Positions 20,301 through 64,000 of a stretch of DNA of 64,000 nt are shown piece after piece. The first letter of the stretch is position 1; each line of letters starts with the position of its first letter. The DNA is from Candidatus Woesearchaeota archaeon (GTDB lineage: Archaea > Nanobdellota > Nanobdellia > Pacearchaeales > GW2011-AR1), in assembly GCA_964516745.1 (NCBI GenBank), contig CAZEYD010000001.1, forward strand, positions 17,234-81,233, in the 5' to 3' direction. The notes under the pieces were generated by a model that saw only the letters and a program-made list of their open reading frames with translations, ran no database searches and had not been told where the DNA came from. The position numbers and the translations under genes were made by a program.

Positions 20301-21805
20301 TTTATTCCTCCTAAAGATATGCTTAAATTATTATAAGAAAATGTATTATTAGAAACATAAACATCAACACTATAAGAAGACATATTTGAAATCACATTAT
20401 TGGATATGGTATTATTAGACGAATTAACAATAATTCCTTTCACAAAATCATTCAAAGTATTATTTGATAGGGTATTCCCCCATTCAATCAATCGTATACC
20501 ATAAGAAGATGTATTAAATATTATATTATTAGAAACAATATTCGCAATACTTTCAAGATATATGCCGCCAGAAATCATATTAGAGATTGTATTGTTAGAG
20601 ATTGTATTGTTGTAAGAAATTTTATCTTGCCAAAACATTGGTATTACTTTTTCAATAAAAACACCATAATCAGAATTCTCGAAAACATTATTAATAATTC
20701 TAGTATTATTATTTTCACCATAAGAATAAAATCCATAAGAAGACATATTAGAAATTGTATTATTATTAATCACATTACCTAAAGAGATATTTTCTAACTT
20801 AAAACCAATACTAGTATTACTCAAAAAATTATTAGAAAAAGTATTATTATCCCCATTATACGCTAAAATACCATAAGAGGACATATTTGAAATTATATTG
20901 TTATCAATCAAATTTATATTAGAATACACATCAAAACCAATCTCCGAATTACTTACATTATTTAATGAAAAATTATTATCATCATCATTAACCCGTATTC
21001 CAAAAGAAGAAACATTATCAAAAATATTACTAGTAATCACATTCTCAGAACCAGAGACATTCATACCATAAGAGAACATATTTAAGAAAATATTTTCGTT
21101 AACAGTATTATTTGAAGAAAAAGAACTAAACGAAAAAGCAGAACCCAAATTCATTAAAGTATTATTAAAAAATCTATTATTAGAACCAGAAACATTAATC
21201 CCGAGAAAAGTTATATCAACAATTGTATTATTTTTCACGATATTATCAAATGAACTAGCACCAAACAAGAATCCATTTTCAGAATCACTCAAACGATTAT
21301 TAAAGAAAGTGTTATTAGAACCAGAAACATTAACAAAAAGCGATGACATATTTTCAATACTAACATTCTCTATAGTATTATTTCTAGCCTCAGATTCAAA
21401 AGAAATACCAACACTAGAATCATTCAAAGAAACATCAGAAATATAGCTATTAGAACCTGAAAGTTTTATAGCAGTTTCAAATCCACTTATAGAAAGATTA
21501 TATATTATCGTATCATTATAACCATTTGTATCAATTCCTATGATTATTCCCGTTGAATTTATTAAAGTTCCATTTCCATTAATTCTCACATTATTAGCTT
21601 CGACAATAAGGCAAGCGCTCATCTCCGATCCAGTAAAAACGAAATCTTTATTAATAATATAATCCGAGTCAGATCGATTCAAATATGCACAACCATCAAC
21701 TTCTGTTAGAGCAGAAACTACTGGAATTAAAAAAGACATTAAAACAAAAGACATCGTCACTAAAACAAATAATAACCTCCCCTTTTCCATCCTAAAATAA
21801 ATCAT
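11336..21805 (-). CDS. Giant (3489 aa) surface protein: parallel beta-helix (NosD/CASH-like) repeats, FG-GAP propeller insert, C-terminal TM anchor
   Basis: Signal peptide; many Asn/Ser/Ile-rich NNTxSNN repeats; QKLTASDG..DYFG..V..DG repeats at about 16560-17680; poly-Gly linker and C-terminal hydrophobic helix. Confidence 0.9.
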   Translation of the reverse strand: MIYFRMEKGRLLFVLVTMSFVLMSFLIPVVSALTEVDGCAYLNRSDSDYIINKDFVFTGSEMSACLIVEANNVRINGNGTLINSTGIIIGIDTNGYNDTIIYNLSISGFETAIKLSGSNSYISDVSLNDSSVGISFESEARNNTIENVSIENMSSLFVNVSGSNNTFFNNRLSDSENGFLFGASSFDNIVKNNTIVDITFLGINVSGSNNRFFNNTLMNLGSAFSFSSFSSNNTVNENIFLNMFSYGMNVSGSENVITSNIFDNVSSFGIRVNDDDNNFSLNNVSNSEIGFDVYSNINLIDNNIISNMSSYGILAYNGDNNTFSNNFLSNTSIGFKLENISLGNVINNNTISNMSSYGFYSYGENNNTRIINNVFENSDYGVFIEKVIPMFWQDKISYNNTISNNTISNMISGGIYLESIANIVSNNIIFNTSSYGIRLIEWGNTLSNNTLNDFVKGIIVNSSNNTISNNVISNMSSYSVDVYVSNNTFSYNNLSISLGGINLASANNIISGNRILNMSNFSINISVDNNTLSDNFLNDSVMGIIISSDNNIIDDNTISSMSSYGINVSGDNNTLSNLFSNGVFVSGDTNNFSNDRFSSSSVGLYLFDCDNLTLSDIVFSDNTLDINYSNVNSFRTINITGINVLGDGTKIYFNDSMSNYTYNSRSAVDLGFLILRNAFNITVRESYVLHYPIVLFNVSSSNFSDMSIIESNDGFILEGDDNTINNNLFFNISFYSVNVNGSNNIFSNNNLTNSATGFDFDENSTNNTIINNTISDISDYAIGITNSSNNTLFNNSLENASIGLYFGLGSVDNTINDNTIFDMSSVGINVSSSNNTFSNNTLNNSDYGFTISGDENRFDSNNISDMSSYSFYVYGDYNNFTDNTLNNSEYGFYIAAVSNNGNFTDNNISDMSHYAFSVSGNGNSIENNNIFNISNYGFTISGNDNNFIDNALNNSVSGFYITSNGSIFRNNNIFNMSNYGFYIIGDDNNLTDNILSNSDSSFYVSGDNNNFTDNALSNSGYGFYISSFSNNSLFDYNNISDMYSYGFYVASDYNTFSYNNLEDVSFGVHITSLADDNIFDHNVVSNSENISVNISGDDNIFSYNNLTNSKYGFYFMSESFNNTIDNGLISNMSSSGVVFNYSHNNTLSNSIINDSTVGLYLIASENITLINNTFSNNNDLDLDYDTINVFRSINISGENILSSAKKIYFNDSAVSYVYNLTSAEDLGFLILRNSDSVNVEDFELNLPIIFINVSNSIINNVSLSNTEEGVILEDSNNNTMSNNVISNMSFYGIDADVDSSNNVINNNNISNVLNYSVYISGVNNTISYNIINGSDYGLYFNYNSSRNVVNNNRIFNISNSSIYFSEDDFFLLNYAPDEDFNESQKLTASDGDVTDYFGYDVSLDGNYLVVGNNAPNAGVYIFEKDEENRWNEIQNITASDNPINAYFGKSVDISNDYIVIGAKSNDSIYIYERNSSGFWNQAQKIIGNEGFGSNVDVSGDYLAVVDYDDYAIEFIPRAESDIYIYERNSSGFWNQTQVIDYPFNYDGNLPARTISLDGNYLAIQAHADNGTINIYERNFSGSWNSIQNVTNVDLVANDYFGFSVSLDGNYLIVGAKGEDIGVNASQGSSYIFKRNSSDSWNEVQKLTASDGNTSDYFGYNVGIDGDNLIIGAMGDDIGGNMNQGSSYVFERNGSGSWNEVQKLVASDGNVSDSFGGSVSIDGDSLVVGSYGDDDLGSASGSAYIYSIPEFFNNFLYSNILNDSGNGIILSSDNNKVDSNVIFDISDSGIRVSGENNTFLSNTLNDSVLGFYFDIGAINNTIDSNVISNMSGYGIVVNDTNNTVYYNNISDSTVGISIQNVSNSINNNILDSNGISIYISGDSNNISSNVFNKSGIGLKIISENNLIDLNNFYDTFSIVMNISGINNSVNNNILDNSSIGVSVLSNNNTFSNNIVNNMSDVGINVSGNESIFNDNILSNSSIGLYLSGSDNLTLINTTFSNNDLDLDYDSIDVFRSIDISGVNNLSSGKLIYFDEFNSNHDYDPVTVSNLGFLILRNSDNVNVEGHILNYPIFLFNVNNSVIENISLSSSKYGIFLEGYNNTIEDNIIFNMTAPGIEIFGSGNNISYNNLSESWIGIFFNSDSSNNIVNNNDIFYMDVYGINVSGYNNTFSNNNLTDSVIGISFDNASYNNMIDNNTIFNMSSSGFSISGYNSTFSNNTLTDSAMGIVLNSFSYNNTVDSNIFSRISISGVNMSGHNSTFSYNNFSDSYSGIYLKSISFNNIADNNIITNMSNYAVKVFGYNNTFSNNILNDSKYGLMLDHVASHHNIINSNVISGMSNYAVKVFGRESTFRDNNISNSFIGIELGINAYNSVIHYNLIYNISFSAINVYGENNSFSYNNLSNSSVGFFVYDNNNLIDNNILYNMYDSSIKIVSAENNTFSNNILNDSKIAFDINSTSIDNLITENIIFNMSFTGINVTNSNNNTFSSNNISVSNVGFYLNTNSNNNIINSNVISEISSFGIYMSASNNNISSNILNDSGDGFYLGSESSDNIISNNYLYNISNYAVSIEGNNNTISANNLSNSSIGINVFSENNIVSNNIIYNMSLVGINVSESNNILSSNILNDSLIGVYFDLGSLNNIIDSNVIFNMSVVGINVSDDNNTFSNNNFSDSLVGLFVGEYSNDSVFSNNIIYNMSVVGINVSGDSNTFSNNTLDNSFIGISVVTGSDNNVFSNNIFSNISSVGVNVLGSNNIFSNNVLNYTNDGMVIGIGDNNSVDSNVFYNISSVGINVSGDDSLITDNDFYNISSFTIWVNSSSNNISSNNFYNSSIGVTILSNDSVFDYNNCTSISGTCINVSGSYNSFEHNRLSNSLMGFNILSDDNTINFNTIYGMSSLGINILGSSNDMFSNNVYNSSVGVNIGSSNNRLHENDIYNILSTSINVSGPDNEFIYNRLSNSSIGFNILSDNNTINYNTVFNNSDVSVVMVGSNNLFKNNILNMSFVGLNISSSNNTINSNTIYDMSNSGIVTYGVNNTFTYNTLNNSIVGIRLYSDNSIISSNIIFNMSASGIVIDGDNNILTLNTLSDTSTGISLFISLNSTISNNIISTMSHSCIAIGDTTTNNILTSNTLSNSSTGIKLFSDNNTIRNNTIYNMSSSGINISGSVNSFVYNNIFVFMENASALYGQDAVGNNFTFNNFTSNNSSSGIAIYFNGSYNNLLYENIIKSINLFVSEDNLTNQWNSSSRGNYWYDLGGSGYSVSCVDSNGTGVCDVAYNLTTNNTDYFPLNLLGATAPVVDNPVVDTPVVSSSGGGGGGGITYSVLTSEGVDRTLTVGSSFNFKYNSEKHLIKNYKSSEEGKVNLSIESIPTYYLLGINQFVKKDLDLDGYYDIYVKVLSLNRYGKVELFIKEINESVVSQEDLSNSNVNGDDDVSDDVEVVDNAIIGTDISSNILKGVSKTRFFIVLLFIFSIFGILVNYPLFKNGFKKIVGRY

Positions 21806-29294: not shown

Positions 29295-29444
29295 TCCCTC
29301 CACCCAGAATCGAACTGGGACAACGCGGGCTCTGCATAACAGAACCGTATTATACGGGCTCAAACGTTATCATCCTTATGTGCAAATAGCACCATGTCAA
29401 ACGCACTTCTACAGCCACGCGCTCTACCTTTGAGCTATGGAGGG
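29295..29444 (-). tRNA. tRNA-Tyr(GUA) with 79-nt intron at 37/38 (intron 29330-29408)
   Basis: C1-G72 acceptor CCCTCCA/TGGAGGG, A73, D-arm GCTC/GAGC, anticodon CT-GTA-G, T-arm CCCAG-TTCGATT-CTGGG; CTGT/GCAG central helix with 3-nt bulges (BHB/BHL-like). Confidence 0.92.
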
Positions 29445-48528: not shown

Positions 48529-49824
48529 TTAAAATCCTATCTTCTCATTAAACTCATCAGAAATATTAGTAAGCATCTTCTCTTTAATCTTCTCAGAATC
48601 ATAATACCAAGCTTTATGTCCCAGGACCCAACCTAACTTAATATACGCAGTCTCAGATAACATATCACCCAAATAAATAACCCCACAATCAGCAATATCT
48701 CTACCTCTAGAATAAACATTAGAATTCAATCTACCATAAATCGTCTGAGCAACTGCAAAAATCGCCATACCATCATTTATCAATTTCTTAATCTTCGGCA
48801 ACCAATTATAACGACCATCTTTACCAGGAATCTGTCCAATACCAGCAACCTCTAAAATAATTCCCTTATATCCTTTCTCCTTATAATAATCCAAAACATC
48901 CGGATCCTGACCGGGCACAATCTTAACAACAGCAACCTTATCATTAAACTTAGAATCAATCTTAACAACCTTCTTATTATCCCTCATCTTAAATTCCTTC
49001 AAAATATCGAAACGATCTAAATTAATTCTAGCAATAGGAGAATCATTAACAACCTTAAACGCATCACGACGAGAAGTATGCATCTTACGAACTTTGGTAG
49101 CAGGCATAGCCAAACAATTCTCATCATGTAAATCTTCGTGAGCAATCAAAGCAACTTCAGCAACATCACTCACAGCAAACTTTGCAGCACAAACCAAATT
49201 CAAATCAGCATCAGTACTCGCCCTATCAATAGACCTCTGCGAACAAGTAAGAGCAATAGGCTTATTCAGGTTCTTAATAAAAAATGATAACGCAGAAGCA
49301 GTATAATGCAAAAAATCAGTTCCATGAGTAATAATCAAACCATCAACCTTTTCACTATTCAATTCTTTTTCACAAATCTCAGCAAGTTTTTTCCAATCAA
49401 CAGACGACATATCCTCAGACCATTTCATAAAAGGTCTTACAACCTTTACAATATTACAAACATTCTGCAAATCCGGAGAAATATTCAAGATTTCCTCAGC
49501 TCCCGTAAATAAAACACCACCTGTCTTAGGATCTAACCGAGAAGATATCGTCCCACCAGTAATAATCACAACAACATTTCTTAAATTCTTATTTTTTTCA
49601 ATCTTAAAATTATCTTTAACTTTTTTTCCTGCTTTTTTAATCAACTTTGCAGATAAAACACTCTCTTCTCTAATACCAATATTATATCCCGTCTCTAATT
49701 TTAACAAAAGAATCTCAGGATTATAAGATTCCAAAATAAAACCATCCCAACTTCTATCCTTTGTCTTTAATTCAACAAAATCGCCAGCATTAAATTCCTT
49801 AACCTTCATAAGAATAAATTTCAA
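48529..49824 (-). CDS. gatD: Glu-tRNA(Gln) amidotransferase subunit D
   Basis: LKLETGYNIG N-domain, TGGTISSR, THGTD, SQRSIDR, KMHTSRRDAF; likely ATG at 49809. Confidence 0.95.
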   Translation of the reverse strand: MKFILMKVKEFNAGDFVELKTKDRSWDGFILESYNPEILLLKLETGYNIGIREESVLSAKLIKKAGKKVKDNFKIEKNKNLRNVVVIITGGTISSRLDPKTGGVLFTGAEEILNISPDLQNVCNIVKVVRPFMKWSEDMSSVDWKKLAEICEKELNSEKVDGLIITHGTDFLHYTASALSFFIKNLNKPIALTCSQRSIDRASTDADLNLVCAAKFAVSDVAEVALIAHEDLHDENCLAMPATKVRKMHTSRRDAFKVVNDSPIARINLDRFDILKEFKMRDNKKVVKIDSKFNDKVAVVKIVPGQDPDVLDYYKEKGYKGIILEVAGIGQIPGKDGRYNWLPKIKKLINDGMAIFAVAQTIYGRLNSNVYSRGRDIADCGVIYLGDMLSETAYIKLGWVLGHKAWYYDSEKIKEKMLTNISDEFNEKIGF

Positions 49825-53683: not shown

Positions 53684-53777
53684 AAAAGAAATAACAATTA
53701 AACATTTTTAACTTCTTTGGTTAAAAAACTCATTACATCCAAAAATTTATAAGCCACTTCTTTCTTGTTGGTTATAT

Positions 53778-53860
53778 GTGGGAGTGCCGGAGTGGCCAAA
53801 CGGGCTGGACTTAAGATCCAGTGGCTTATGCCTACGGGGGTTCGAATCCTCTCTCCCACA
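53778..53860 (+). tRNA. tRNA-Leu(UAA)
   Basis: GTGGGAG/CTCCCAC, CTGGA-CTTAAGA-TCCAG, long variable arm, GGGGG-TTCGAAT-CCTCT. Confidence 0.95.
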
Positions 53861-53991
53861 TTTTTTAGAACCACCATAACGAGAGTTTGAGTATCTTTAC
53901 TTGAATTTATATGGTTTTACTAAATTTCAGAATGAAGTACGAAAAAAATCTTATTTACTACATAAACTCAAATATATAAAAGAAAATAATT

Positions 53992-54516
53992 TTAATTCTT
54001 CAAATCATAACCCAACTTAAAAATGAACCTATCCCATCGACCCATCTTTTTACCATTATAAGGACCACCCATTCTATTTGTACGATAAGCATTAACAATT
54101 TTCATAATATCTTTAGCAGCTATTTCAGAAGCATTAGCTCTTCTTTTTTCTGTTTTTCCATTATGTTCAATACGCTCGGTTAATGCATAATAAAAATTTT
54201 GTATTTTATATGATTTTCTCAAATATCTAACTGCATCAGGTATAGACCATTCAGTATAATTTATCTTTGGTAGAACTTCATTCCAACTACCAAGTTTTGC
54301 TCCATTCTCATGGGCAAAATCTAAGATACGACTACAAGCAGTAGCTCTAGCATTCTCACCATACACTGGATCTTCATTCTCTTCAATATATCCAACATAT
54401 TCATCAAGATATTTTTTCATTTCACGTTTATTAGACATATTTCTAACAGTATACGCAACATTAACCATTTTAGAATAATCCCCGAACCTATCTTTATCCA
54501 AATTTTTTTCACTCAT
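53992..54516 (-). CDS. Hypothetical protein (174 aa)
   Basis: Clean ORF, no motif recognised. Confidence 0.7.
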   Translation of the reverse strand: MSEKNLDKDRFGDYSKMVNVAYTVRNMSNKREMKKYLDEYVGYIEENEDPVYGENARATACSRILDFAHENGAKLGSWNEVLPKINYTEWSIPDAVRYLRKSYKIQNFYYALTERIEHNGKTEKRRANASEIAAKDIMKIVNAYRTNRMGGPYNGKKMGRWDRFIFKLGYDLKN

Positions 54517-54737
54517 TATTAGAAATATTATAAAGACTTTATAAATATTCTTGGTATTGTCACTTTATAATTAATATAACGTCCCAACCGGATATTTCAA
54601 AAAAGTTCAATGTTCTTAACTAGCCTATATAAGATCTTGACACTTTTTAATATTAATATTAATACTAATATTACGTTTATAAATTTAGTCTTTAGTCAGA
54701 ATTTGAAAAATTATTATAGAAAAGATTTAAATATCAA

Positions 54738-54763
54738 CATTTGTATTCATTTGTATTCATTTG
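54738..54763. promoter_or_regulatory. Tandem 10-bp repeat, candidate RHH operator
   Basis: CATTTGTATT CATTTGTATT CATTTG directly before the GGAGG SD of the RHH gene. Confidence 0.55.
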
Positions 54764-54772
54764 GAGGTTTTA

Positions 54773-54913
54773 ATGGAAGAAAATAATAAAAAAAATGTAA
54801 CTTTATATCTTAATTCTAAATTATATGAAGATTATGCTGAATATTGTAAAAAGGAGGGTCTTGCACTGTCAAGACAGATAGAGAGATTTATCGAGTCTTC
54901 ATTAAAAGAATAA
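54773..54913 (+). CDS. Ribbon-helix-helix (CopG-like) regulator, 46 aa, not in the ORF track
   Basis: MEENNKKNVTLYLNSKLYEDYAEYCKKEGLALSRQIERFIESSLKE; GGAGG SD; stop abuts the MTase ATG. Confidence 0.85.
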   Translation: MEENNKKNVTLYLNSKLYEDYAEYCKKEGLALSRQIERFIESSLKE

Positions 54914-55918
54914 ATGGCCATTAACAATTATAATGTAGCAGATTTATTCTCTGGTGTAGGGGGATTATCCCTGGGATTTAAAGAAAATGGATTTGACTTA
55001 ATTTTTGGTAACGATGTAGATGAAAATGCGGCAAAGACATTTCTTCATAACCATCCAGAAACACCTTTTCATTTAGGTGATGTTAAGGAGATTGATGAAA
55101 AATTATTGAATAAAAAACTAAATGACAAAAAAGTTGATGTATTAGTTGGGGGTGTTCCTTGCCAGTCTTTTTCGATGGTAGGATATAGAACTACCAAAAA
55201 GGATGCAAATCTAAATGACCCAAGACATTACCTATTTAGAGAATTTATAAGAGTTGCAAGTATTTTAAAACCAAAAGTTGTCATAATTGAAAATGTTAAA
55301 GCAATATTATCAAGTCATGATGGAAAAATAAGGGAAGAAATTATTAGGGGCCTAGAGGAGCTGGGCTATGAAGTAGATTGTAAAATATTAAATGCGGCAG
55401 ATTATGGTGCTCCGCAACTTAGAGAAAGAGCAATATTCATAGGTAATCTTCTGGGTAAAAAAAATATATTCCCAAAAAAAACAAATACCTCAGAAAATTG
55501 GGCTACTATTAAAGACGCATTTAAAGAGCTACCAAAAGAAAATCACGAACCAAAAAAATTGAGCGGAGTTGTCCTTGAAAGAGTTAAGATTATTAAACAA
55601 GGTGAAAACTGGAAATCGTTACCCAAAGAACTTCAAACAGGATCAAAGCATAGTGGGGCCTATGGAAGATTGCACCCAGATATGCCTTCAAGAACATTAA
55701 CAACAAGATTTGATACACCTCCAGGAGGATATGTTACGCATCCGACAGAAAATAGAGCAATTACAGTTAGAGAGGGCGCAAGAATACAGGGGTTTCCTGA
55801 TGACTTTGTTTTTCTCGGAGGTCGTTCATCACAATATAAGCAGGTAGGTAATGCCGTTGCAGTAGATGTTTCAAGGGCACTTGCAAAAGAAATTAGGAGG
55901 ATGTTGGATGAAGTATAA
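54914..55918 (+). CDS. DNA cytosine-C5 methyltransferase
   Basis: DLFSGVGG, GGVPCQSFS, ENV, QLRER, TVREGARIQGFPD, QVGNAV. Confidence 0.96.
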   Translation: MAINNYNVADLFSGVGGLSLGFKENGFDLIFGNDVDENAAKTFLHNHPETPFHLGDVKEIDEKLLNKKLNDKKVDVLVGGVPCQSFSMVGYRTTKKDANLNDPRHYLFREFIRVASILKPKVVIIENVKAILSSHDGKIREEIIRGLEELGYEVDCKILNAADYGAPQLRERAIFIGNLLGKKNIFPKKTNTSENWATIKDAFKELPKENHEPKKLSGVVLERVKIIKQGENWKSLPKELQTGSKHSGAYGRLHPDMPSRTLTTRFDTPPGGYVTHPTENRAITVREGARIQGFPDDFVFLGGRSSQYKQVGNAVAVDVSRALAKEIRRMLDEV

Positions 55919-56651
55919 TTCATTCATTAATTTAAAGAAAGATTGTTATATTTCTAATGGAGATTCGTTGGAAATAATAAAAGAAATTGATGATAATTCA
56001 GTGAATTTAATTTTAACAGACCCGCCTTACAACCTAGGAAAATTTATGAATAATAGAGGAACAAATATGGGAAAACTTAGAGAAAATCATTTTTCAGCTA
56101 CAGACTGGGACCATCTAACTTATGAAGACTGGGCTAAAAAAATGGATCAGTTTTTAGAGAACTCTGCAAGAGTCATAATGAATGGAGGTTCAATGATTAT
56201 TTTTATGTCTCTTATGAAGGTTGAATCAATAATTAAATTAGCAGAGAAACATGGGTTTTACTATAAAACTACAGGAATATGGCATAAAAAAAATCCTATT
56301 CCGCGAAATATGAATCTACACTTTGTTAATTCTACAGAAGGGTGGATTTATTTTACTTACAAAAAGAAGACGGGCGTATTTAACAATGAAAAAAAACTAG
56401 AGCATGATTTTTTTGAATCTGGGTTAACTCCAGGTTCTGAAAAGCGCCATGGTGGACACCCAACACAAAAACCTGAAATTTTGATAAAACATTTTATAAA
56501 ATTATTATCAAATGAAAATGATGTTGTACTTGATCCATTTATGGGAAGTGGGACCACTGGTAAAGTAGCTTCTGAAATGAATAGAAAATTTATAGGAATA
56601 GAGCTATCTGATAAATATTTTAAAATGTCTAAAGAAAGGATTCTTGGTTAA
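55908..56651 (+). CDS. DNA N4-cytosine/N6-adenine methyltransferase (beta class)
   Basis: TDPPYN, HPTQKP, VLDPFMGSGTT; AGGAGG SD supports the ATG at 55908. Confidence 0.95.
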   Translation: MKYNSFINLKKDCYISNGDSLEIIKEIDDNSVNLILTDPPYNLGKFMNNRGTNMGKLRENHFSATDWDHLTYEDWAKKMDQFLENSARVIMNGGSMIIFMSLMKVESIIKLAEKHGFYYKTTGIWHKKNPIPRNMNLHFVNSTEGWIYFTYKKKTGVFNNEKKLEHDFFESGLTPGSEKRHGGHPTQKPEILIKHFIKLLSNENDVVLDPFMGSGTTGKVASEMNRKFIGIELSDKYFKMSKERILG

Positions 56652-59188
56652 TCTTCATGAAATTTCAATAAGCTTTTAGAAGAATAGAGCATTTTTTTAT
56701 AACCCGAATCATCATCATCTGTATAAGTAATTAAATTTCCACTTTTTATAAGTTTATTAAATTTTTCCACTTTTTCTGATAGCTCTTTATAATACTCTTC
56801 CTTTAGAATAATCTTATCTTTACTCCAACTAAAATATTTATTATATATTAACACATTAAAGAATCTCTTATCGGCCTTATTTTTTTGATTAAGGAGTTTT
56901 TCAATCTCAAGTTTTTCTTCATCCTCCCTATATAATACAATCTTCTCAACAACTTCATTTATCTCATTATGTTTTTTAGCTAAGATTAAAAAGTTATTTA
57001 TCTCAAATTTAGATAGTGAGGGATTTTCATATCCATATTTATCTTTCAACAAGGTTAGAACTTCATACACAAAAAATAATGGATATAAATTAAAGTAAAC
57101 ATTTATTGGTTGCCTTTTACTTGCTTCTACATGACGGTTAGTTAAACTAAATATATTATTCCAGAAATAAAACTTTTCAAGTTGATTTGTTAAAACTTCT
57201 TCAATATTTTTATCATTAATTGATTTAAATGCATCACTTAATTCCATGGGCTTGTCATTTTTAAGGAATCCAAATAATTTACTTAGGAATAAAGCCCTAA
57301 CTCCCTCAAGAGTTTTAGAGGGAAATTCTTTCTTAGATTCTTCTCTAAGTATCTTGGATAATTCTTCAAAAGAACCTGTTTTTAATTTATCTTTAATAAG
57401 ATTCAAACCCCATATTTGAACTTCCATATTCCCAGTTTTATTTCCAAGTTTCCATATTAACTTAACTCCTTCTTTCGTGTTCTCTTCAACAAAATCCCCA
57501 TAATTTTTCCATTCTTCGTCAAGCACCTCTGTCCTAACTCTCTTTGTAGCCCTACTAGTCATAATTCTAAATATTTTTACAACTTCACCTTCAAATATAA
57601 CTCTTCTCCCATCATTATCAAAATAATAAATATCTTTTTCTTTGTCATAAGTTAGATCCCCTACCCCCCCTATTCCCAACGCTGGTAAAATTTTATGAGC
57701 CGTTTGGTAGTTTCCAATAAAATCTAAGATTAACACCCCTCTTTTTCCTGGAGAAATCCTTAGTCCCCTTCCTATCTGCTGGGTTAATATATTTACAGAT
57801 TCAGTTGGTCTTAGTAGGAGTAAGCATTCGACATCTGGGAAATCTACACCCTCATTAAACATATTTACAGTAAATGCTACCTTGTATTTCCCATTTGCAA
57901 ACTCATCAACTAATTTATCCCTATCTCTTTCATTAATTTCAAGATCTGGATTATCTAATTTAGAATGGATTGCTACTGCCTTTATGCCTGCTTCATTGAA
58001 TACTTTTGCGCACCAATTAGCATGCTCAATTGAACTACAAAATCCTATAGTTTTTTTATCACTAGCAAGCTCCTGGTATTTATCAATAATTGCCTTATCT
58101 CTTTCCTCTATCATTAATGCCTTATTCAAATCGTTTGCATCATAACGAAAACCATTGAAAAATATATTTGTATAATCAACATTATCCAAAAATCCAAGAT
58201 AATTAATATTTGTTAAAAAACCCTTTTTTACCGCTTCTTCTTGGTCCATTTGAAAAACTAGATTATCATCATAAAAATTAAGAATATCTTGCTGGTCTGT
58301 TCTATCTGGTGTTGCTGTTAATCCAAGAAAAAATTTGGGATTAAAATAATTAAATACTTTTTTATAAGTAGGCGCTGCAACGTGGTGCGTCTCATCAAAT
58401 ATCATATAGTCAAAGTGGTCTTTTTTAAAAGATTTGAGATGTTTGTCCTGAGTTAGTGTTTGAATTGTCGAAAAAAGAATATTTTTATCTTTATCCAGGT
58501 TGCCTTGTCCAAGAAACCCCATCTCCGTAACTCTCCCAGGCATTAATTGTTCAAAAGAGTTTCTAGTTTTTCTTAATATTGTAAAGTCGTGAACGATAAA
58601 ACATATTTTCTTAGATTTCATTTGCAGTGAATCAAAAATACTCAGAAAGGTTTTCCCCAGTCCAGTTGCTAAAACAACCAGTCCCTTATCTTTTCCATCT
58701 TCCCTGGTTAAATCTAGCTTCTCTAAAACTGTTTCTTGAACTTCTGAGGGCTGAACGCTTCCCTTATTTCTTCTTAAGAATATACCGTAAAGTTGCTCAT
58801 CTGCAATAAAATCCCTCCTTAATTGGTAAATTGCTTCTTCTGGAGTCTCAACAATTTGGTCTCTTGAAAGTTCAATGTAAATATAACCCTGTCTCCTAAT
58901 TTCATTAGACTTTCTGAGTAATTCATTATATCTATCCCTGTCAACTCTCCCAGGAGCATGATAATTAAACCCGTTACATTCTATAGCATATTTAGCAAAC
59001 TTTGTTTTTATCACAAAATCTATTCTCCAAAGTTTATCTGAACCATCATTTCTTGAAATATTAACTTCAGGTAAAATAAAGTCCAATCCCTTGTCTCCAA
59101 GATCTCTGTAATAAATGGTTTTTAAAAATAAAGTCTCCAAGTATCCCATCTTCTTGCCATGCTTGCTCATAAATTCTATTAATTTCAT
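56648..59188 (-). CDS. Restriction-type fusion: DUF559-like PD-(D/E)XK nuclease, SF2 (ResIII-like) helicase, AlwI-like recognition domain
   Basis: WRIDF...IECNGFNYH; LATGLGKT, FDETHH, GLTATP, MFNEGVD, QQIGRGLR; C-terminal NQLEKFY...YPL...LSKFEI...IVLYR pattern. Confidence 0.8.
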   Translation of the reverse strand: MKLIEFMSKHGKKMGYLETLFLKTIYYRDLGDKGLDFILPEVNISRNDGSDKLWRIDFVIKTKFAKYAIECNGFNYHAPGRVDRDRYNELLRKSNEIRRQGYIYIELSRDQIVETPEEAIYQLRRDFIADEQLYGIFLRRNKGSVQPSEVQETVLEKLDLTREDGKDKGLVVLATGLGKTFLSIFDSLQMKSKKICFIVHDFTILRKTRNSFEQLMPGRVTEMGFLGQGNLDKDKNILFSTIQTLTQDKHLKSFKKDHFDYMIFDETHHVAAPTYKKVFNYFNPKFFLGLTATPDRTDQQDILNFYDDNLVFQMDQEEAVKKGFLTNINYLGFLDNVDYTNIFFNGFRYDANDLNKALMIEERDKAIIDKYQELASDKKTIGFCSSIEHANWCAKVFNEAGIKAVAIHSKLDNPDLEINERDRDKLVDEFANGKYKVAFTVNMFNEGVDFPDVECLLLLRPTESVNILTQQIGRGLRISPGKRGVLILDFIGNYQTAHKILPALGIGGVGDLTYDKEKDIYYFDNDGRRVIFEGEVVKIFRIMTSRATKRVRTEVLDEEWKNYGDFVEENTKEGVKLIWKLGNKTGNMEVQIWGLNLIKDKLKTGSFEELSKILREESKKEFPSKTLEGVRALFLSKLFGFLKNDKPMELSDAFKSINDKNIEEVLTNQLEKFYFWNNIFSLTNRHVEASKRQPINVYFNLYPLFFVYEVLTLLKDKYGYENPSLSKFEINNFLILAKKHNEINEVVEKIVLYREDEEKLEIEKLLNQKNKADKRFFNVLIYNKYFSWSKDKIILKEEYYKELSEKVEKFNKLIKSGNLITYTDDDDSGYKKMLYSSKSLLKFHED

Positions 59189-59233
59189 TTTTTGTTTGTT
59201 AATCAGTCCGTTGTCTTAAGTTTACTGCACTAT

Positions 59234-60091
59234 TTAACGATTCCTCCCTTTCTCATCAACCTGAGTTGTTTTCATTATATTTTTAAAAATTTCAATTACC
59301 TTATCACTTGATTTGACTATCCCCATATTCCCATCATAATCAAAGAAATTCATGTCTGTATGAGGTTTACAATCTGGATATCTTGGGGTATTCCAGTGGG
59401 GGAAAGTTATCAAACTTATTAGATGTAATTTCATGCCAAGAAACATATTGTCTATATATTGGTTGATATTTTTTTTATCAATTGCTTCTTTTATTTGTGA
59501 ATTTCTTATTCTAAACTTTGTTAATCGATTTAAAACTTGTTTTAAGAAATTCATAGATTTTCTTTTTCTAATTTTTTTGTCTATTTTTTTAATTGAGTCC
59601 TCAGTTTTTAATTTTTTTTCTAATCCCTCAATAAATTCGATTAATCCTAAAATTTCATGATCTTTCATGTTTCTTAGCTCATCTTCGTTCTTTTTTATAA
59701 TTTCTAATTTTTCCTCAAATCCATTAGTTGAAAATTCTTTATTATTTAATGAATTGACTAGTTCAAACAATTCATTTATATCATCTATTTTTGTGACTTC
59801 TTTCTTTAATCTATTAATAATAAATTCATGCCCCCTTGCTTCTTCGGGAGACATCCTTCCAGAATCTATGTAAAATCCTTTCGTTATTTTTTCAAAGGCT
59901 TGTTCAATGTGATAGATTCCTCCTGCGTAGTATTCCTTTTCAAGAAGAATTTCAGATATTTCAATATCGTTTTGTGCAATTGCATACCATTTATCTGCAA
60001 TTTTCTTATTTTCAATAGAAACCTTTGCATATTGATTAATTTTCTGCATAAATTTTTCAAAACTTACATATTCAGATTCTCTGAACATCAT
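59234..60091 (-). CDS. HEPN-domain protein with helical insertion
   Basis: WYAIAQNDI...YHIEQAFEKITKG, GH, C-terminal PRYP. Confidence 0.8.
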   Translation of the reverse strand: MMFRESEYVSFEKFMQKINQYAKVSIENKKIADKWYAIAQNDIEISEILLEKEYYAGGIYHIEQAFEKITKGFYIDSGRMSPEEARGHEFIINRLKKEVTKIDDINELFELVNSLNNKEFSTNGFEEKLEIIKKNEDELRNMKDHEILGLIEFIEGLEKKLKTEDSIKKIDKKIRKRKSMNFLKQVLNRLTKFRIRNSQIKEAIDKKNINQYIDNMFLGMKLHLISLITFPHWNTPRYPDCKPHTDMNFFDYDGNMGIVKSSDKVIEIFKNIMKTTQVDEKGRNR

Positions 60092-61563
60092 TTAACGACC
60101 TCTCTTAAAGATTTCACAATTTCAACTTCAGCAAGAGTATCCAACTTACAATATTTCTCCAAGTCTTCACGAACTTTCTTTTTATCTTCTTCAGAAACAT
60201 CTCCAAAAGTAACTCTTTCATACTCCAAACTTGCAAGAATCCCATTTTTTATGTCCAAATCAGAATAACTCAATTCACTTAATATTGGAAGAACGTATTT
60301 TATTGATGCTGACCCGTTTTGTTTTGGATCATAATAATAAAAATTACGAAATACATCCCATAAATCTTTGATTCTAGGCAAAATATTTTCATCATACCAC
60401 TCCCTAAATTCTGGCAACAAAATTACAGACTCATTTAAGACCCCTTTTTCAAAACCTTGGTTATATACAAGAATATCTCCTTTGTCTCCTAAATTCTCTC
60501 TTAGAGAGCTTAAAAACTCCCTTTTTGTGTCTTCTATACCCTCAGCAAGATAAGAAATATGTTTCAATTTTCCGTCTTTTTCTTCTTGAACATGTAATGA
60601 ATATTGAAAAGGTATTCTTTGATATGGTTTCATTCCATCAAACTTTGGAATCGCAGGGTTAATTGTTTCAAAATCCAAATAATAAATTGGATATTGTAAA
60701 TTATCTAAGAAATTCTTAATTTCCCTTTCATCCTTGTGGATTCCACCGTCAAAAGCTAATCTTCTTTGAATTTGTTGTTTTTCGTTCAACTTAACATTTT
60801 CAGGAACATCATTCAACTTAGTAATCCCAGAATCATATAATTCAAACTTCTTCTTTGACAACATCCTATAAAGATTAAAAATACTTTCTTTCGGAATATC
60901 TTTCCAACATTCTGATTTTAAAGGACAATCGTAAGGATCAGAGCAATAAACTCCAATAGAAATTTTTGGTTCCTCTTTAGATTTAATGATTTTAAACATA
61001 TTTTCGATTCTTTCTTCAATTCCTGAGTTAAATTCTTCAACTTTTTCAGTAATGTCTTCTTGATGGAATAATTCATTCGGGTCAATTTCGCCATTTTTTA
61101 TATATTGGTTATTAATGTGCATAAGATAACATTTTCTAATTTTTATCCCAGATTTCTCATAAACATATTTTTGAAAACTAACATCGTGAATATTAACATC
61201 TTTTATTTTAGTCGCAGACTTAACTTCAACTATATCCCATTTGTCTTCTTCAACTGGCACAAGAATATCTCCCCTAGAAAACAAATTGTCAACTAAAAAA
61301 CCACATTCAAATATTGGCTTTCTTTCTTTCAAAGATTCAGTCGTTTTATCAATATTTTCCTTAAAATCTAGTTCAGATAAATCAATTCCGTCTGTAAAAA
61401 CCTTTGTTGCGAGTTCACCGATCAAAGTTCCCATTTCAAAATTGTGTTTTGCCGAGATATCTGGTTCTGGAATTCGTTCTTTTTGATTTTTAGTTATCCA
61501 TAGTAGTTTTGGACACTGTAATCCGAGAAGATAATTTGATTTGGTTAGTAGTTTACTTGCCAT
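60088..61563 (-). CDS. DUF2779 protein (Cas4-like PD-(D/E)XK N-domain plus RNase H-like C-domain)
   Basis: GLQCPK, RGDIL...IVEVKS, DVSFQ, CSDPYDCP..EC, YLDFET, VYN..FEK, YCKLDT. Confidence 0.85.
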   Translation of the reverse strand: MASKLLTKSNYLLGLQCPKLLWITKNQKERIPEPDISAKHNFEMGTLIGELATKVFTDGIDLSELDFKENIDKTTESLKERKPIFECGFLVDNLFSRGDILVPVEEDKWDIVEVKSATKIKDVNIHDVSFQKYVYEKSGIKIRKCYLMHINNQYIKNGEIDPNELFHQEDITEKVEEFNSGIEERIENMFKIIKSKEEPKISIGVYCSDPYDCPLKSECWKDIPKESIFNLYRMLSKKKFELYDSGITKLNDVPENVKLNEKQQIQRRLAFDGGIHKDEREIKNFLDNLQYPIYYLDFETINPAIPKFDGMKPYQRIPFQYSLHVQEEKDGKLKHISYLAEGIEDTKREFLSSLRENLGDKGDILVYNQGFEKGVLNESVILLPEFREWYDENILPRIKDLWDVFRNFYYYDPKQNGSASIKYVLPILSELSYSDLDIKNGILASLEYERVTFGDVSEEDKKKVREDLEKYCKLDTLAEVEIVKSLREVVK

Positions 61564-61566
61564 GGG

Positions 61567-62418
61567 CTAATTATCTTCTTGTCTTTTTAGCTCGTCAAGA
61601 GTCTTACCTTCTTTATTTCTCCATCCTGTCCACCCATTAGCAGGCCTTCCAACAACTACTGCAGCAGCAGCAGACGGAGAGTTAAAAACAAAATCTTTGG
61701 TAAAAATCATAGAATCTCCATCATCCTTTAATGTTCCTTCAGAAATTAACTTGTTTTTTATATTTAAGACCCATGCACCAAGACTAGCCGTGTTTTCCTT
61801 GTTTATTCTAGAACCTTCATATACTAAAAATCCATCCTCGGTTAGATTTCCTTTAGCATCAGCAAGTTTACTTTTACAGAAAAATATTTCCTCTTCTGTC
61901 TCAGCTTTTTTAGCAGGACTAAGAATTGGATAGCCTAACAAGTCTAAGATAAATTTTATTTCATCTAAAAATTGTAATATAAATTCTTCCTCATAGTCTG
62001 GCGCAGGCTGAATAACTTGTTCTTTTTTATTTTGTAATTTTGTTTGTCCTAGTTTAGTAGCTTCAAGTATTGAGTAAGCTTCCAAATATCCAACCTGAAC
62101 CTTGTTCAGACCATCTTCAGAATCTCCATAAAAACAAACTGCAAAATTCCAATCTTCCTTATTCTTATAATGGTTTTTTAATCTACTTACAAGATTTCCT
62201 TCCCCTATGTAAGTTTTAATCAAGGAATTTTCCTCTTTTTCACTAAATAAAAAGTAGATACCAGTACGATCAAGTAACTCATCTGAACCATTAGCTTCAT
62301 TAATAAGATTTTTCGGAACCACTATTGCCTTTAGTGGGAAAGTTGTTATATTAATTTTCTTCACACCCTTTGGATTTCCGTCAGGCAAATAAATGTTTAT
62401 TGATTTTCCCTTAGTCAT
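61567..62418 (-). CDS. GIY-YIG nuclease plus DUF4357 domain protein
   Basis: GIYFL...YIGEG; C-terminal FNSPSAAAAVVVGRPANGWTGW. Confidence 0.88.
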   Translation of the reverse strand: MTKGKSINIYLPDGNPKGVKKINITTFPLKAIVVPKNLINEANGSDELLDRTGIYFLFSEKEENSLIKTYIGEGNLVSRLKNHYKNKEDWNFAVCFYGDSEDGLNKVQVGYLEAYSILEATKLGQTKLQNKKEQVIQPAPDYEEEFILQFLDEIKFILDLLGYPILSPAKKAETEEEIFFCKSKLADAKGNLTEDGFLVYEGSRINKENTASLGAWVLNIKNKLISEGTLKDDGDSMIFTKDFVFNSPSAAAAVVVGRPANGWTGWRNKEGKTLDELKRQEDN

Positions 62419-62460
62419 GAGATAACATGTAAAACTTAGTTTTTAATTTTAATGTTTGGT

Positions 62461-62832
62461 TTATTTTACATAAACCCGAGATCCTTTAACCTCTAAAAAT
62501 TTTGCTTGGGGATTTTGTTCGGTATATGCTCGAAAACATCTTTTACAGCAAAAAGAAGTAGTATCTAATACTGGACCCAGTGTTATCTTCTGGCTCGGTT
62601 TCCCACAAACAACACATTCTTCTCTATTAACATTCTTTTTCATCTTCCTCTTTAAATCTATAATAGCCTCATCAAAAAATAAACTCGGACTAATATTGTT
62701 TTTATCCATCCATTTTTTATTTTCTTTTGTGGTTCGGACAGTAAGAATAACATCTTTGGGTTCTGGCTTTTGGATATTTGCTAGTTCTACCATGTAATAC
62801 TTATGTAATACTGGTTTATAAAATTTATCCAA
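62461..62832 (-). CDS. RHH-like DNA-binding domain fused to a TRASH/MYM-like zinc finger
   Basis: LTVRTTKENKKWMDKNNISPS; CVVCG...FCCKRC. Confidence 0.6.
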   Translation of the reverse strand: MDKFYKPVLHKYYMVELANIQKPEPKDVILTVRTTKENKKWMDKNNISPSLFFDEAIIDLKRKMKKNVNREECVVCGKPSQKITLGPVLDTTSFCCKRCFRAYTEQNPQAKFLEVKGSRVYVK

Positions 62833-62870
62833 GAATTTTTTGTGCTTTATTTAACTTAAGAACATGGATT

Positions 62871-63581
62871 CTAGGTATTGTATCGCTTTACAGTTTTGGC
62901 ATAATTTTCTATCCTTTTACTTCTTAACTTAACAAAATTAGTAACTCTTTTTTTATACAATAAATACTCATTAATATCAGAAAATCCTGGGTTAGTTTTG
63001 AAATCATCAAATGGTAAATAAAATTTAATATTGCCCTTTTCGTCAATTAAGTCTTCCAATAAAAAGAAGTGAATATAACCCCTAAAATTATCAAACAAAT
63101 CAAAGAAATTTTTATACCTCGATAAAGTATTATAAAGTGGACTTTTCTTCCCTAAATAAAAGAGGCGGATACACTCTAGTGTTAAGTCGAATCTGTCATC
63201 AATTTTTCCGTTAATTCCACGATCTTGATTGATTGTATTACCATCAATTTTTTTATTTGGAAAAACGATATAGGACCCAATTCTGGAATTAGAATCAAGA
63301 AATTCTTCCACTTCATTTGGGATTTGTTTTGTAAGCCAATGTTTTCGCACTTGGTTTTTATATGAATGCGTTATGGCATCGCTGCCCAAAAAGAATTCTC
63401 CTAGTTCAGATTTATGATATAAATAAGCGCCATTTTTATCATCACATAAATCAAAAACTTTACCATTTGGCAAAGGCTTGTTCCATAATATTTTATGATA
63501 TTTTTTTAATGTTGGACTATATTTGTCGGGATCACGATCCCCTGTTTCAGAGTAAAAATTAAAACTTGTGTCAATTATCAT
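62871..63581 (-). CDS. DUF6994-like protein
   Basis: DPDKYSPTL..YH..LW.K.LPNG, LGSDAI, TINQDRG, DRFDLTLECIR, SPL; family recalled from motifs. Confidence 0.65.
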   Translation of the reverse strand: MIIDTSFNFYSETGDRDPDKYSPTLKKYHKILWNKPLPNGKVFDLCDDKNGAYLYHKSELGEFFLGSDAITHSYKNQVRKHWLTKQIPNEVEEFLDSNSRIGSYIVFPNKKIDGNTINQDRGINGKIDDRFDLTLECIRLFYLGKKSPLYNTLSRYKNFFDLFDNFRGYIHFFLLEDLIDEKGNIKFYLPFDDFKTNPGFSDINEYLLYKKRVTNFVKLRSKRIENYAKTVKRYNT

Positions 63582-64000
63582 TTATTTCAAAACCTCCAAC
63601 AACCCTTCGATACTATCAATCTCAAAATCTGCCCCACTCTTGATTCTCTTCCCAACTCTACCATAAGCCGCATAACAAGTCTTAATTCCCATCTTCTTAG
63701 CAGTCTTAACATCCCTTTCAATTCTATCCCCCACCATCAAAGCCTCCCCTGGCTTAACCCCAAGCTTTCTAAGAGCAGAATTAAACGGAGCAACATTATT
63801 CTTCTGCTTTCTAACATCCCCAGAAGTAACGACTACATCAAAAAACTTGTCAATCCTAAGAGTCACAAGCCTAAACCAAGCATTTCTCCTAGGAGCATCA
63901 CTAACAATTGCCAACTTATACTTCTTCTTTAATTTCTTCAAAACATCCCTCGTGCCAGGGTAAGCAGAAAGATAAGAAGCCCTAAGCTCCCTATACGCAA
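63582..64000 (-). CDS. HAD-superfamily hydrolase (TIGR02253-like), 5' end outside the window
   Basis: AYPGTRDVLKKL, IVSDA, MVGDRIERD; the frame stays open to the window edge. Confidence 0.9.
   Translation of the reverse strand, partial: AYRELRASYLSAYPGTRDVLKKLKKKYKLAIVSDAPRRNAWFRLVTLRIDKFFDVVVTSGDVRKQKNNVAPFNSALRKLGVKPGEALMVGDRIERDVKTAKKMGIKTCYAAYGRVGKRIKSGADFEIDSIEGLLEVLK

What the first reader, a model, noticed from the sequence alone, without database searches (positions are those of the whole stretch)
54914..59188. Hybrid R-M system: m5C MTase and amino-MTase facing a nuclease-helicase-recognition-domain fusion
Seen: two solitary MTases of different chemistry in one operon converge on an 846-aa gene (stop codons overlap at 56648-56651). 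Established: paired m5C and m6A/m4C MTases protect the two strands of asymmetric sites in some Type IIS systems (e.g. Eco31I/Esp3I-like), whose REases lack helicases, while SauUSI-like Type IV enzymes are PLD nuclease-SF2 helicase-readout fusions without cognate MTases. Here a similar SF2 motor has a DUF559-like PD-(D/E)XK nuclease in front and what looks like an AlwI/Type IIS-style recognition domain, without its own catalytic domain, behind. Inference: a single-chain, ATP-dependent, sequence-specific restriction enzyme with separate strand-specific MTases that fits none of Types I-IV cleanly.
Basis: partly seen in the sequence, partly recalled or inferred. Interest (0 to 1): 0.75.

Follow-up and report, generated by a model that had tools for sequence, protein, structure and literature searches.

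The report
Motor-driven restriction enzyme with two methylases
An archaeal genomic island carries a three-gene restriction-modification cassette whose cutting enzyme joins a nuclease, a SauUSI-type ATP motor and a Type IIS-style DNA reader in one chain, next to a cytosine and an adenine methylase; I found no paper describing this layout, although it recurs in marine bacteria, CPR bacteria and archaea.

Summary
M1 (54914-55918) is an m5C methylase. M2 (probable start 55908, end 56651) is a beta-class DPPY amino-methylase. The convergent 846-aa gene (56648-59188, minus strand) has three parts: an N-terminal PD-(D/E)XK (MTES_1575/DUF559-like) nuclease, an intact SF2 motor closest to SauUSI (PDB 7clg, E 1e-65), and a C-terminal domain. 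The predicted fold of that C-terminal domain matches only the recognition domains of the Type IIS enzymes Nt.BspD6I and BpuJI. It has no catalytic half.

Homologues of about 850 aa occur in Pelagibacter, a Pseudomonadales MAG, CPR bacteria and archaea. In all 19 informative homologue loci they sit next to two DNA methylases, usually an m5C methylase plus an amino-methylase. The same reader-plus-methylase sets also occur with a PLD nuclease, an HNH nuclease or a McrBC motor, and reader type tracks methylase type.

The best reading is an ATP-dependent, sequence-specific restriction enzyme that is blocked by methylation, with strand-specific methylases. Activity, target site and cleavage mode are untested. 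It is a new variant of a known kind. Precedents for NTP-driven, site-specific R-M exist (CglI/NgoAVII, LlaJI/BsuMI). REBASE could not be consulted. A small RHH regulator gene (54773-54913) also belongs to the cassette.

The parts
54738..54757 (+). Tandem direct repeat CATTTGTATT x2 (a third partial copy follows). It lies between a TATA-like TTTAAATA (54726-54733) and the GGAGG/ATG of the RHH gene, so it is a candidate operator.
   Evidence: Repeat found; sequence read. The operator role is inference only.
54773..54913 (+). 46-aa ribbon-helix-helix protein. Its stop codon abuts the M1 ATG. It is the likely controller of the methylase operon.
   Evidence: RepB-RCR_reg E 1.4e-4 (above cut-off) and RHH_5 E 7e-4. 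Translation. A homologous 52-aa ORF heads the methylase operon of the P0012 locus, which has a different amino-methylase. It is also called as a gene in L099.
54914..55918 (+). M1: C5-cytosine DNA methyltransferase, 334 aa.
   Evidence: PF00145 E 6e-78 and TIGR00675 E 2e-65. Closest solved relatives are M.HaeIII and M.HhaI. Catalytic motifs are present in the translation.
55908..56651 (+). M2: beta-class amino-methyltransferase, probably N6-adenine (DPPY), 247 aa from the likely start. The mechanical ORF starts at 55866.
   Evidence: PF01555 E 2.5e-45. It aligns end to end with the GAGG adenine methylase M1.HpyAVI (5hfj, E 1e-35). Start and RBS read.
58769..59188 (-). Restriction protein aa 1-140: PD-(D/E)XK nuclease domain (MTES_1575/DUF559-like). 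Conserved residues are D57, E70, G73, H77, K93 and N95. Position 72 is N here and D in most homologues.
   Evidence: Pfam hits across homologues. Column counts. AF2 model pLDDT 89. Top Foldseek neighbours are all PD-(D/E)XK nucleases, E 2.6e-3 to 0.1.
57641..58768 (-). Restriction protein aa 141-516: SF2 helicase-like ATPase motor of the SauUSI type. Walker A GLGKT, DETHH, TATP and QQIGRGLR are invariant in the family.
   Evidence: 7clg E 1.3e-65. PADLOC mREase_IV E 4e-69. ResIII E 4e-36 and Helicase_C E 4e-15. Invariant columns.
56651..57640 (-). No catalytic half follows it.
   Evidence: AF2 model pLDDT 87.6. Foldseek hits are Nt.BspD6I and the BpuJI recognition domain only. RE_AlwI N-terminal positions are matched in 11 of 33 homologues.
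56648..56651 (.). Overlapping convergent stop codons of M2 and the restriction gene.
   Evidence: Sequence read.

Best explanation
This is a restriction-modification cassette. M1 (m5C) and M2 (probably m6A) each methylate one strand of a short, probably asymmetric DNA site in the host genome.

The 846-aa protein is the restriction enzyme. Its C-terminal Type IIS-style reader binds the same site when it is unmethylated. Binding switches on the SauUSI-type ATPase, which translocates on double-stranded DNA. The N-terminal PD-(D/E)XK nuclease then cuts away from the site. A double-strand break probably needs two enzyme molecules, either as a dimer or by collision, as in SauUSI or the Type ISP enzymes. 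A methyl group on either strand blocks reader binding, so freshly replicated host DNA is safe. The small RHH protein probably controls the methylase operon.

Shown: the domain identities, the intact catalytic motifs, the conserved three-gene association, and the co-variation of reader and methylases.

Inferred: ATP dependence, site specificity, blocking by methylation, site asymmetry, the cleavage geometry and the RHH role.
For: (1) Domains. The motor matches SauUSI. The nuclease has a PD-(D/E)XK fold with D57/E70/H77/K93 conserved. ATPase motifs I, II, III and VI are invariant in 33 homologues.

(2) Synteny. All 19 informative homologue loci, from Pelagibacter, a Pseudomonadales MAG, Paceibacterota, Saccharibacteria and archaeal metagenome contigs, have two methylase genes directly beside the gene. 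Eighteen have m5C plus an amino-methylase (in two of these only the m5C gene is visible before the contig ends). One has two amino-methylases.

(3) Reader subtype tracks methylase type. 'xEGxRALF' readers go with a ~250-aa beta-class methylase. 'TAGFRALF' readers go with 533-595-aa amino-methylases. P0012 has a nuclease and motor as close to the window protein as P0003 does (70% and 67% identity), but it carries the other reader subtype and a different amino-methylase.

(4) The same reader-plus-methylase sets occur on other cleavage chassis. These are PLD nuclease plus reader (P0122) with a convergent m5C and 251-aa methylase; reader plus HNH (P0140) with a 534-aa methylase; and McrB, McrC and a free-standing reader with the window-type pair (L096). 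For P0122, the best match of its reader, its m5C methylase and its amino-methylase is the same locus, L083, in all three cases.

(5) M2's closest solved relative, M1.HpyAVI, is the adenine methylase of a two-methylase Type II system.
Against: Nothing has been tested biochemically.
- The window protein itself gives no RE_AlwI hit, and only a sub-threshold MTES_1575 hit.
- Foldseek E-values for the nuclease domain are modest.
- The nuclease position 72 is N rather than the usual D in this clade.
- No under-represented asymmetric k-mer was found in the 64-kb window.
- Reader-methylase co-variation partly reflects co-inheritance of whole cassettes.
- P0012 and the L082 enzyme are 65% identical yet have different methylase sets.
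Confidence: 0.7

Rival explanations
1. The 846-aa protein is a Type IV, modification-dependent enzyme like SauUSI. It merely sits next to an unrelated pair of methylases in a defence island.
For: The motor is SauUSI-like, and the only strong PADLOC hits are mREase_IV models. The surrounding region is a defence-rich island.
Against: The PADLOC match covers only the helicase core. There is no PLD nuclease and no SRA/DUF3427 reader. Methylase adjacency holds in 19 of 19 loci across phyla. Reader type co-varies with methylase type, also on other chassis. A Type IV enzyme beside an m5C methylase on the same element would risk attacking its own host.
Confidence: 0.07
2. The protein supplies only specificity and motor function. 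Its N-terminal nuclease-like domain is inactive or structural, and cleavage is done by a partner, or the system acts without cleavage.
For: D72 is replaced by N in the window clade. Two family members (P0105, P0119) have a degraded N-terminal domain. A Cas4-like DUF2779 gene lies nearby in both archaeal loci.
Against: D57, E70, G73, H77 and K93 are invariant or nearly so across 33 homologues, including the N72 clade. DUF2779, HEPN and the other neighbours are absent from the bacterial loci. The only conserved partners are the methylases.
Confidence: 0.1
3. The protein is a repair enzyme tied to the m5C methylase. It would be a Vsr-like nuclease with a helicase and a site reader that corrects T:G mismatches arising at methylated sites.
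For: The N-terminal domain is DUF559/Vsr-like in fold. m5C methylases are often accompanied by Vsr-type nucleases (general knowledge).
Against: The L082 locus has no m5C methylase. Relatives L007, L009, L010 and L012 pair with a single N6_N4 methylase. The same reader-plus-methylase sets are joined to PLD, HNH and McrBC restriction-type effectors. The motor resembles restriction translocases (SauUSI, HsdR).
Confidence: 0.04

Closest known systems
SauUSI (Type IV, Staphylococcus aureus; PDB 7clg)
   Same: The SF2 helicase-like motor is homologous (E 1.3e-65 over aa 139-516). The linear order nuclease - motor - reader in one chain is the same (PMC7913695).
   Different: SauUSI has a PLD nuclease, a long helical coupler and an SRA reader for 5mC. 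It has no cognate methylase and cuts modified DNA.
Type ISP enzymes (LlaGI, LlaBIII)
   Same: They are single-chain enzymes with an N-terminal PD-(D/E)XK (Mrr-like) nuclease, an SF2 motor and a C-terminal reader for an asymmetric site. They are ATP-driven translocating restriction enzymes.
   Different: Type ISP enzymes carry an in-chain gamma-class methylase and a Type I-like TRD, and they modify one strand only. Here there is no methylase domain and there are two separate methylases. LlaBIII is not among the PDB sequence hits at E < 0.01.
CglI / NgoAVII (ATP-dependent Type II)
   Same: They have a helicase-like motor and read an unmethylated asymmetric site. They have a separate Type II-like m5C methylase and do not fit Types I-IV (PMC4267653, PMC5737866).
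   Different: Their reader plus PLD nuclease (R) and their DEAD-Z1 motor (H) are separate proteins.
AlwI-family and BpuJI Type IIS enzymes (Nt.BspD6I 2ewf, BpuJI 2vla)
   Same: The reader domain is structurally homologous (Foldseek E 3.5e-6 to 4e-4 over ~300 columns). It shares the N-terminal part of the RE_AlwI profile.
LlaJI / LlaI / BsuMI (McrBC-type site-specific R-M)
   Same: An NTP-driven motor-nuclease from a Type IV lineage is re-targeted to unmethylated specific sites and paired with Type II-like methylases, two of them in LlaJI and BsuMI (PMC1459862; 10.64898/2026.08.31.748284). Locus L096 is of this type and uses the same reader and methylase pair as the window.
   Different: The motor is a McrB AAA+ protein rather than an SF2 helicase, and the system has several subunits. 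The LlaI.R1 reader is ERCC4-like, not AlwI-like.
Type IIS systems with one m5C and one m6A methylase (Eco31I, Esp3I, MnlI/HpyAVI)
   Same: They have two separate methylases of different chemistry in one operon. M2 aligns end to end with M1.HpyAVI.
   Different: Their nucleases are small and ATP-independent. The identity of the target site here is unknown. The Eco31I, Esp3I and MnlI details rest on my own knowledge and were not tested.

Membership tests
SauUSI-type Type IV enzymes (PADLOC mREase_IV) | SF2 helicase-like motor homologous to SauUSI | tested here: met
   7clg E 1.3e-65 over aa 139-516. PDLC03658 E 4e-69, profile positions 221-572 of 953.
SauUSI-type Type IV enzymes (PADLOC mREase_IV) | N-terminal PLD-family nuclease | tested here: not met
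   No PLDc hit. The N-terminal domain is MTES_1575/DUF559-like with a PD-(D/E)XK fold. A true PLD-helicase relative, L013, does show PLDc_2.
SauUSI-type Type IV enzymes (PADLOC mREase_IV) | C-terminal SRA/DUF3427 reader of modified cytosine | tested here: not met
   The C-terminal domain matches only the Nt.BspD6I and BpuJI recognition domains. No SRA or DUF3427 hit was found.
SauUSI-type Type IV enzymes (PADLOC mREase_IV) | No cognate methylase; cuts modified DNA | tested here: not met
   Two methylases are adjacent in 19 of 19 informative loci. Substrate preference itself cannot be tested here.
AlwI-family Type IIS restriction enzymes (PF09491) | Winged-helix recognition domain (N-terminal half of the profile) | tested here: met
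   RE_AlwI positions ~20-132 are matched above the Pfam cut-off in 11 of 33 homologues (best E 1.3e-7), though not in the window protein itself. The fold match to Nt.BspD6I has probability 1.0.
Type ISP restriction-modification enzymes | Single chain with a PD-(D/E)XK nuclease followed by an SF2 motor | tested here: met
   The motor is closer to SauUSI than to any solved Type ISP enzyme.
Type ISP restriction-modification enzymes | In-chain adenine methylase domain and Type I-like TRD | tested here: not met
   No methylase or HsdS-type hit in the 846-aa protein or in 33 homologues.
ATP-dependent Type II (CglI/NgoAVII) | Separate R (PLD + B3) and H (DEAD-Z1) subunits | tested here: not met
   The nuclease, motor and reader are in one chain. 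No PLD, B3 or Z1 domain was found.
ATP-dependent Type II (CglI/NgoAVII) | NTP-dependent cleavage at an unmethylated asymmetric site | not testable with these tools
   Needs biochemistry. The architecture is compatible.
Type IIS two-methylase systems | Two separate methylases, one per strand, in one operon | tested here: inconclusive
   Two methylases of different chemistry with overlapping genes are shown. Strand-specific action on one asymmetric site was not shown.
Type I restriction-modification | HsdM and HsdS subunits with an HsdR motor-nuclease | tested here: not met
   The methylases are Type II-like (PF00145, PF01555) and no HsdS was found. HsdR models match only the motor region (EcoAI R, E 3e-32, far below cut-off).

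The most novel reading that the evidence does not exclude
This would be the founding example of an undescribed class of restriction enzyme: a single chain of PD-(D/E)XK nuclease, SauUSI-type motor and Type IIS reader, protected against by two free-standing strand-specific methylases. It is spread through SAR11, CPR bacteria and small-genome archaea.

Its reader-plus-methylase specificity cassette is portable. Nature has plugged it into at least four cleavage engines: PLD, HNH, McrBC and SF2 motor-nuclease. That makes it a natural experiment on what a motor adds to restriction.
Probability: 0.55. Interest if true: 0.72.

Novelty: new variant of a known kind. Interest (0 to 1): 0.62.

Why it matters
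It links two branches of restriction biology. The SauUSI motor chassis is known only from enzymes that attack modified DNA. Here it is re-targeted by a Type IIS reader to unmodified sites and paired with methylases, just as McrBC was re-targeted in LlaJI and BsuMI.

The same reader-plus-methylase sets occur with motor-less nucleases (PLD, HNH) and with two kinds of motor. Matched enzymes could therefore be compared directly to ask what ATP-driven translocation buys a restriction system.

There are two practical points.
- Automated defence annotation (PADLOC) would call this protein Type IV, and NCBI names the homologues only 'DEAD/DEAH box helicase'. Such systems are therefore probably miscounted.
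- The family is present in SAR11, CPR bacteria and small archaea, whose defences and genetic tractability are poorly known.

Tried and rejected
Only fold comparison worked.
- I looked for the target site by k-mer depletion in the 64-kb window. Only palindromic GATC is strongly depleted (O/E 0.47). No asymmetric 4- to 6-mer stands out, so this is inconclusive.
- M2's similarity to M1.HpyAVI (GAGG) is a lead to a CCTC/GAGG-like site, not a test. About 35-40% identity is too low to transfer specificity.
The three ~600-aa ones I scanned (P0171, P0175, P0183) are instead reader-McrB (AAA_5) fusions.
- I considered that LlaI.R1 might be the same reader. It is ERCC4-like.
- I considered DUF2779 and HEPN as system components. 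They are absent from the bacterial loci.
- Literature searches found no description of this architecture.
- REBASE and DefenseFinder were not available.

Full report
**1. The observation**

- M1 (54914-55918, +, 334 aa) is a C5-cytosine methylase (PF00145 E 6e-78, TIGR00675 E 2e-65). The FSGVGG, PCQ, ENV and QVGNAV motifs are visible.
- M2 is a beta-class amino-methylase (PF01555 E 2.5e-45), with DPPY ahead of FMGSGTTG. Its mechanical ORF starts at 55866. ATG 55908 follows an AGGAGG by 8 nt and overlaps the M1 stop. The Pelagibacter orthologue is also 247 aa. I therefore place the start at 55908.
- The 846-aa gene (56648-59188, -) converges on M2, and the two stop codons overlap in GGTTAATC. 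Homologues align from its first methionine. The 846-aa start is therefore preferred over the 840-aa start called in the public assembly.
It is a ribbon-helix-helix protein (RepB-RCR_reg E 1.4e-4, RHH_5 E 7e-4). A tandem CATTTGTATT repeat lies just upstream, between a TATA-like element and the ribosome-binding site.

**2. Anatomy of the 846-aa protein**

- *Motor.* Residues 139-516 match SauUSI (7clg) at E 1.3e-65. The next-best hits are RadD, a Type I HsdR and XPB. PADLOC's two mREase_IV models match at E 4e-69 and 5e-56, but only over their helicase cores. In an alignment of 33 full-length homologues (43-81% identity), Walker A (GLGKT), DExH (DETHH), TATP and QxxGRGxR are invariant. The ATPase should therefore be active.
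- *Nuclease.* The N-terminal 140 residues give a sub-threshold MTES_1575 hit in the window protein (E 2e-4). MTES_1575 is found in 27 of 33 homologues, DUF559 in 9 and the DpnII catalytic core in 2. A confident model (pLDDT 89) has only PD-(D/E)XK nucleases as its top structural neighbours: the R2 endonuclease domain, Bax1, AF1548, TnsA, I-Bth0305I, the DUF559 protein NGO0050 and PvuRts1I. E-values are modest (2.6e-3 to 0.1), but probabilities are mostly 0.8-0.97 among these. D57, E70, G73, H77 and K93 are invariant or nearly so. Position 72 is D in 24, N in 5 (including the window) and H in 2 sequences.
- *Reader.* The last ~350 residues have no Pfam hit in the window protein. Eleven of 33 homologues match RE_AlwI above the Pfam cut-off, and only over profile positions ~20-132 of 441. 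A model built on 23 sequences (pLDDT 87.6, pTM 0.84) matches twelve PDB chains at E < 0.001. All are Nt.BspD6I or the BpuJI recognition domain, with ~300 aligned columns. The next hit has E > 1. This is therefore the winged-helix recognition half of a Type IIS enzyme, with no catalytic half.

**3. Is the gene trio real?**

Nineteen homologue loci have enough DNA beyond the 3' end of the gene. All nineteen have two DNA methylase genes directly adjacent. Four others end at or within the gene and are uninformative.

Three layouts occur:
- a convergent small beta-class methylase plus m5C, as in the window (order M1-M2 in the window and P0003; M2-M1 in Pelagibacter and others);
- a co-directional 533-550-aa amino-methylase plus m5C, in CPR bacteria;
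- variants with a 595-aa gamma-class methylase plus m5C (P0012), or two amino-methylases (L082).

Hosts include Pelagibacter, a Pseudomonadales MAG, Paceibacterota, Saccharibacteria and archaea.

**4.

- Readers fall into two sequence subtypes, and the subtypes sort with methylase type.
- P0012 is as close to the window enzyme in nuclease (70%) and motor (67%) as P0003 is. It carries the other reader subtype (46%) and has a different amino-methylase. This is what a specificity swap would look like.
- P0122 is followed by a convergent m5C methylase plus a 251-aa methylase. P0140 is followed by a 534-aa methylase.
- For P0122, the best match of its reader (44.6%), its m5C methylase (69.8%) and its amino-methylase (67.3%) is the same locus, L083, in all three cases.
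- In L096, a free-standing reader follows McrB- and McrC-like genes and faces a methylase pair that is 58% and 66% identical to the window's, in the same order.

**5. Mechanism**

The best-supported reading is a restriction-modification system. M1 and M2 protect the two strands of what is probably an asymmetric site.

Support for asymmetry is indirect.
- Two methylases of different chemistry are kept throughout the family.
From my own knowledge, BspD6I reads GAGTC and BpuJI reads CCCGT.
- M2's closest solved relative, M1.HpyAVI, methylates GAGG in a two-methylase system.

A single PD-(D/E)XK site cuts one strand, so a double-strand break probably needs a dimer or a collision, as in SauUSI (PMC7913695) or the Type ISP enzymes. 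This step is inference. I put 0.7 on the overall reading.

**6. Rivals**

- *A motor-and-specificity protein with a dead nuclease (0.10).* N72 and two degraded family members raise this possibility. The rest of the active site is conserved, and no other partner is conserved.
- *A Vsr-like repair enzyme serving the m5C methylase (0.04).* This does not fit loci that lack m5C methylases (L082; L007, L009, L010 and L012 have one N6_N4 methylase). It also does not fit the restriction-type effectors that share the cassette.

**7. Comparison with known systems, and novelty**

The system works like a cross between SauUSI or Type ISP (single-chain nuclease-motor-reader) and a two-methylase Type IIS system. 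It fails defining features of each family (see the membership table).

Hybrids of this general sort are known. CglI/NgoAVII use a separate helicase subunit (PMC4267653, PMC5737866). LlaJI, LlaI and BsuMI use McrBC motors with Type II-like methylases (PMC1459862; 10.64898/2026.08.31.748284).

I found no paper describing this single-chain architecture or the portable AlwI-like reader. NCBI names the homologues only as DEAD/DEAH helicases. REBASE could not be consulted, so the family may already be listed there as putative. I rate it a new variant of a known kind, with interest 0.62.

**8. Context**

The host is an archaeon. It has a GatD gene, and one tRNA match is stretched to 150 nt, probably by an intron. 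GC content is about 30%. The cassette lies just after tRNA-Leu (53777-53861), in a run of defence-type genes. On the longer public contig this run ends with an integrase. The P0012 and P0003 cassettes also sit beside integrase or recombinase genes, so the cassette appears to travel on integrative elements.

Noticed in passing
window 53777-64000; L100:1-1123: The cassette lies in a probable integrated island. tRNA-Leu (53777-53861) is at one side. Then come a 174-aa unknown, the R-M genes, HEPN (59234-60091), a DUF2779/Cas4-like gene (60088-61563), PDC-S14/DUF4357 (61567-62418) and DUF6994 (62871-63581). A phage-type integrase lies beyond the window end on the longer public contig.
   Followed up: partly
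L096:8-6022: A McrBC-type variant. It has a McrB-like AAA_5 protein (652 aa), McrC (430 aa) and a free-standing 314-aa AlwI-like reader (32% identical to the window reader). These face an m5C methylase and a small amino-methylase that are 58% and 66% identical to the window's, in the same order. It resembles the LlaI/BsuMI three-gene layout but has a different reader fold.
   Followed up: partly
P0122/L106:756-4150; P0140/L105:347-3342; P0171, P0175, P0183, P0209, P0213: The same reader domain is fused to a PLD nuclease (with a convergent m5C plus 251-aa methylase), to an HNH nuclease (followed by a 534-aa methylase), and to McrB-type AAA+ domains. Only 177 representative proteins in 1.84 billion carry it.
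   Followed up: partly
L007:63-3942; L009:6998-10652; L010:5018-8736; L012:759-4613: Sister family. It has the same MTES_1575 nuclease and SauUSI-type motor but a different C-terminal region (an HNH_repeat plus ~300 unassigned residues). It is followed directly by a single N6_N4 methylase. Hosts are Methanosarcinales, Poribacteria, Microcystaceae and Bryobacteraceae.
   Followed up: partly
window 1-64000: GATC is strongly under-represented (196 observed against 419 expected; O/E 0.47, z about -13). No asymmetric 4- to 6-mer stands out.
   Followed up: no
window 29295-29444 (-); 48529-49824 (-): A tRNA match is stretched to 150 nt (probably by an intron) and was not reported by ARAGORN. There is also a GatD-type amidotransferase gene. 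Together they point to an archaeal host with ~30% GC.
   Followed up: no
window 11336-21805 (-): A single ORF of 3489 aa. It was not examined.
   Followed up: no
L004:6504-9068: The homologue in a Pseudomonadales MAG is split into two ORFs at 8792/8796. This is either a pseudogene or an assembly error.
   Followed up: no
L100:13324-14283 versus L099:10008-11153: Two public contigs carry the identical restriction protein. On one of them the m5C methylase is called as 319 aa and the small RHH gene is not called, which suggests strain-level variation at the 5' end of the methylase operon.
   Followed up: no
L101:11942-12100 (-): A 52-aa RHH protein homologous to the window's 46-aa one heads the methylase operon of the P0012 cassette, although the amino-methylase there is of a different class. 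The bacterial loci examined (for example L001 and L103) lack it.
   Followed up: partly
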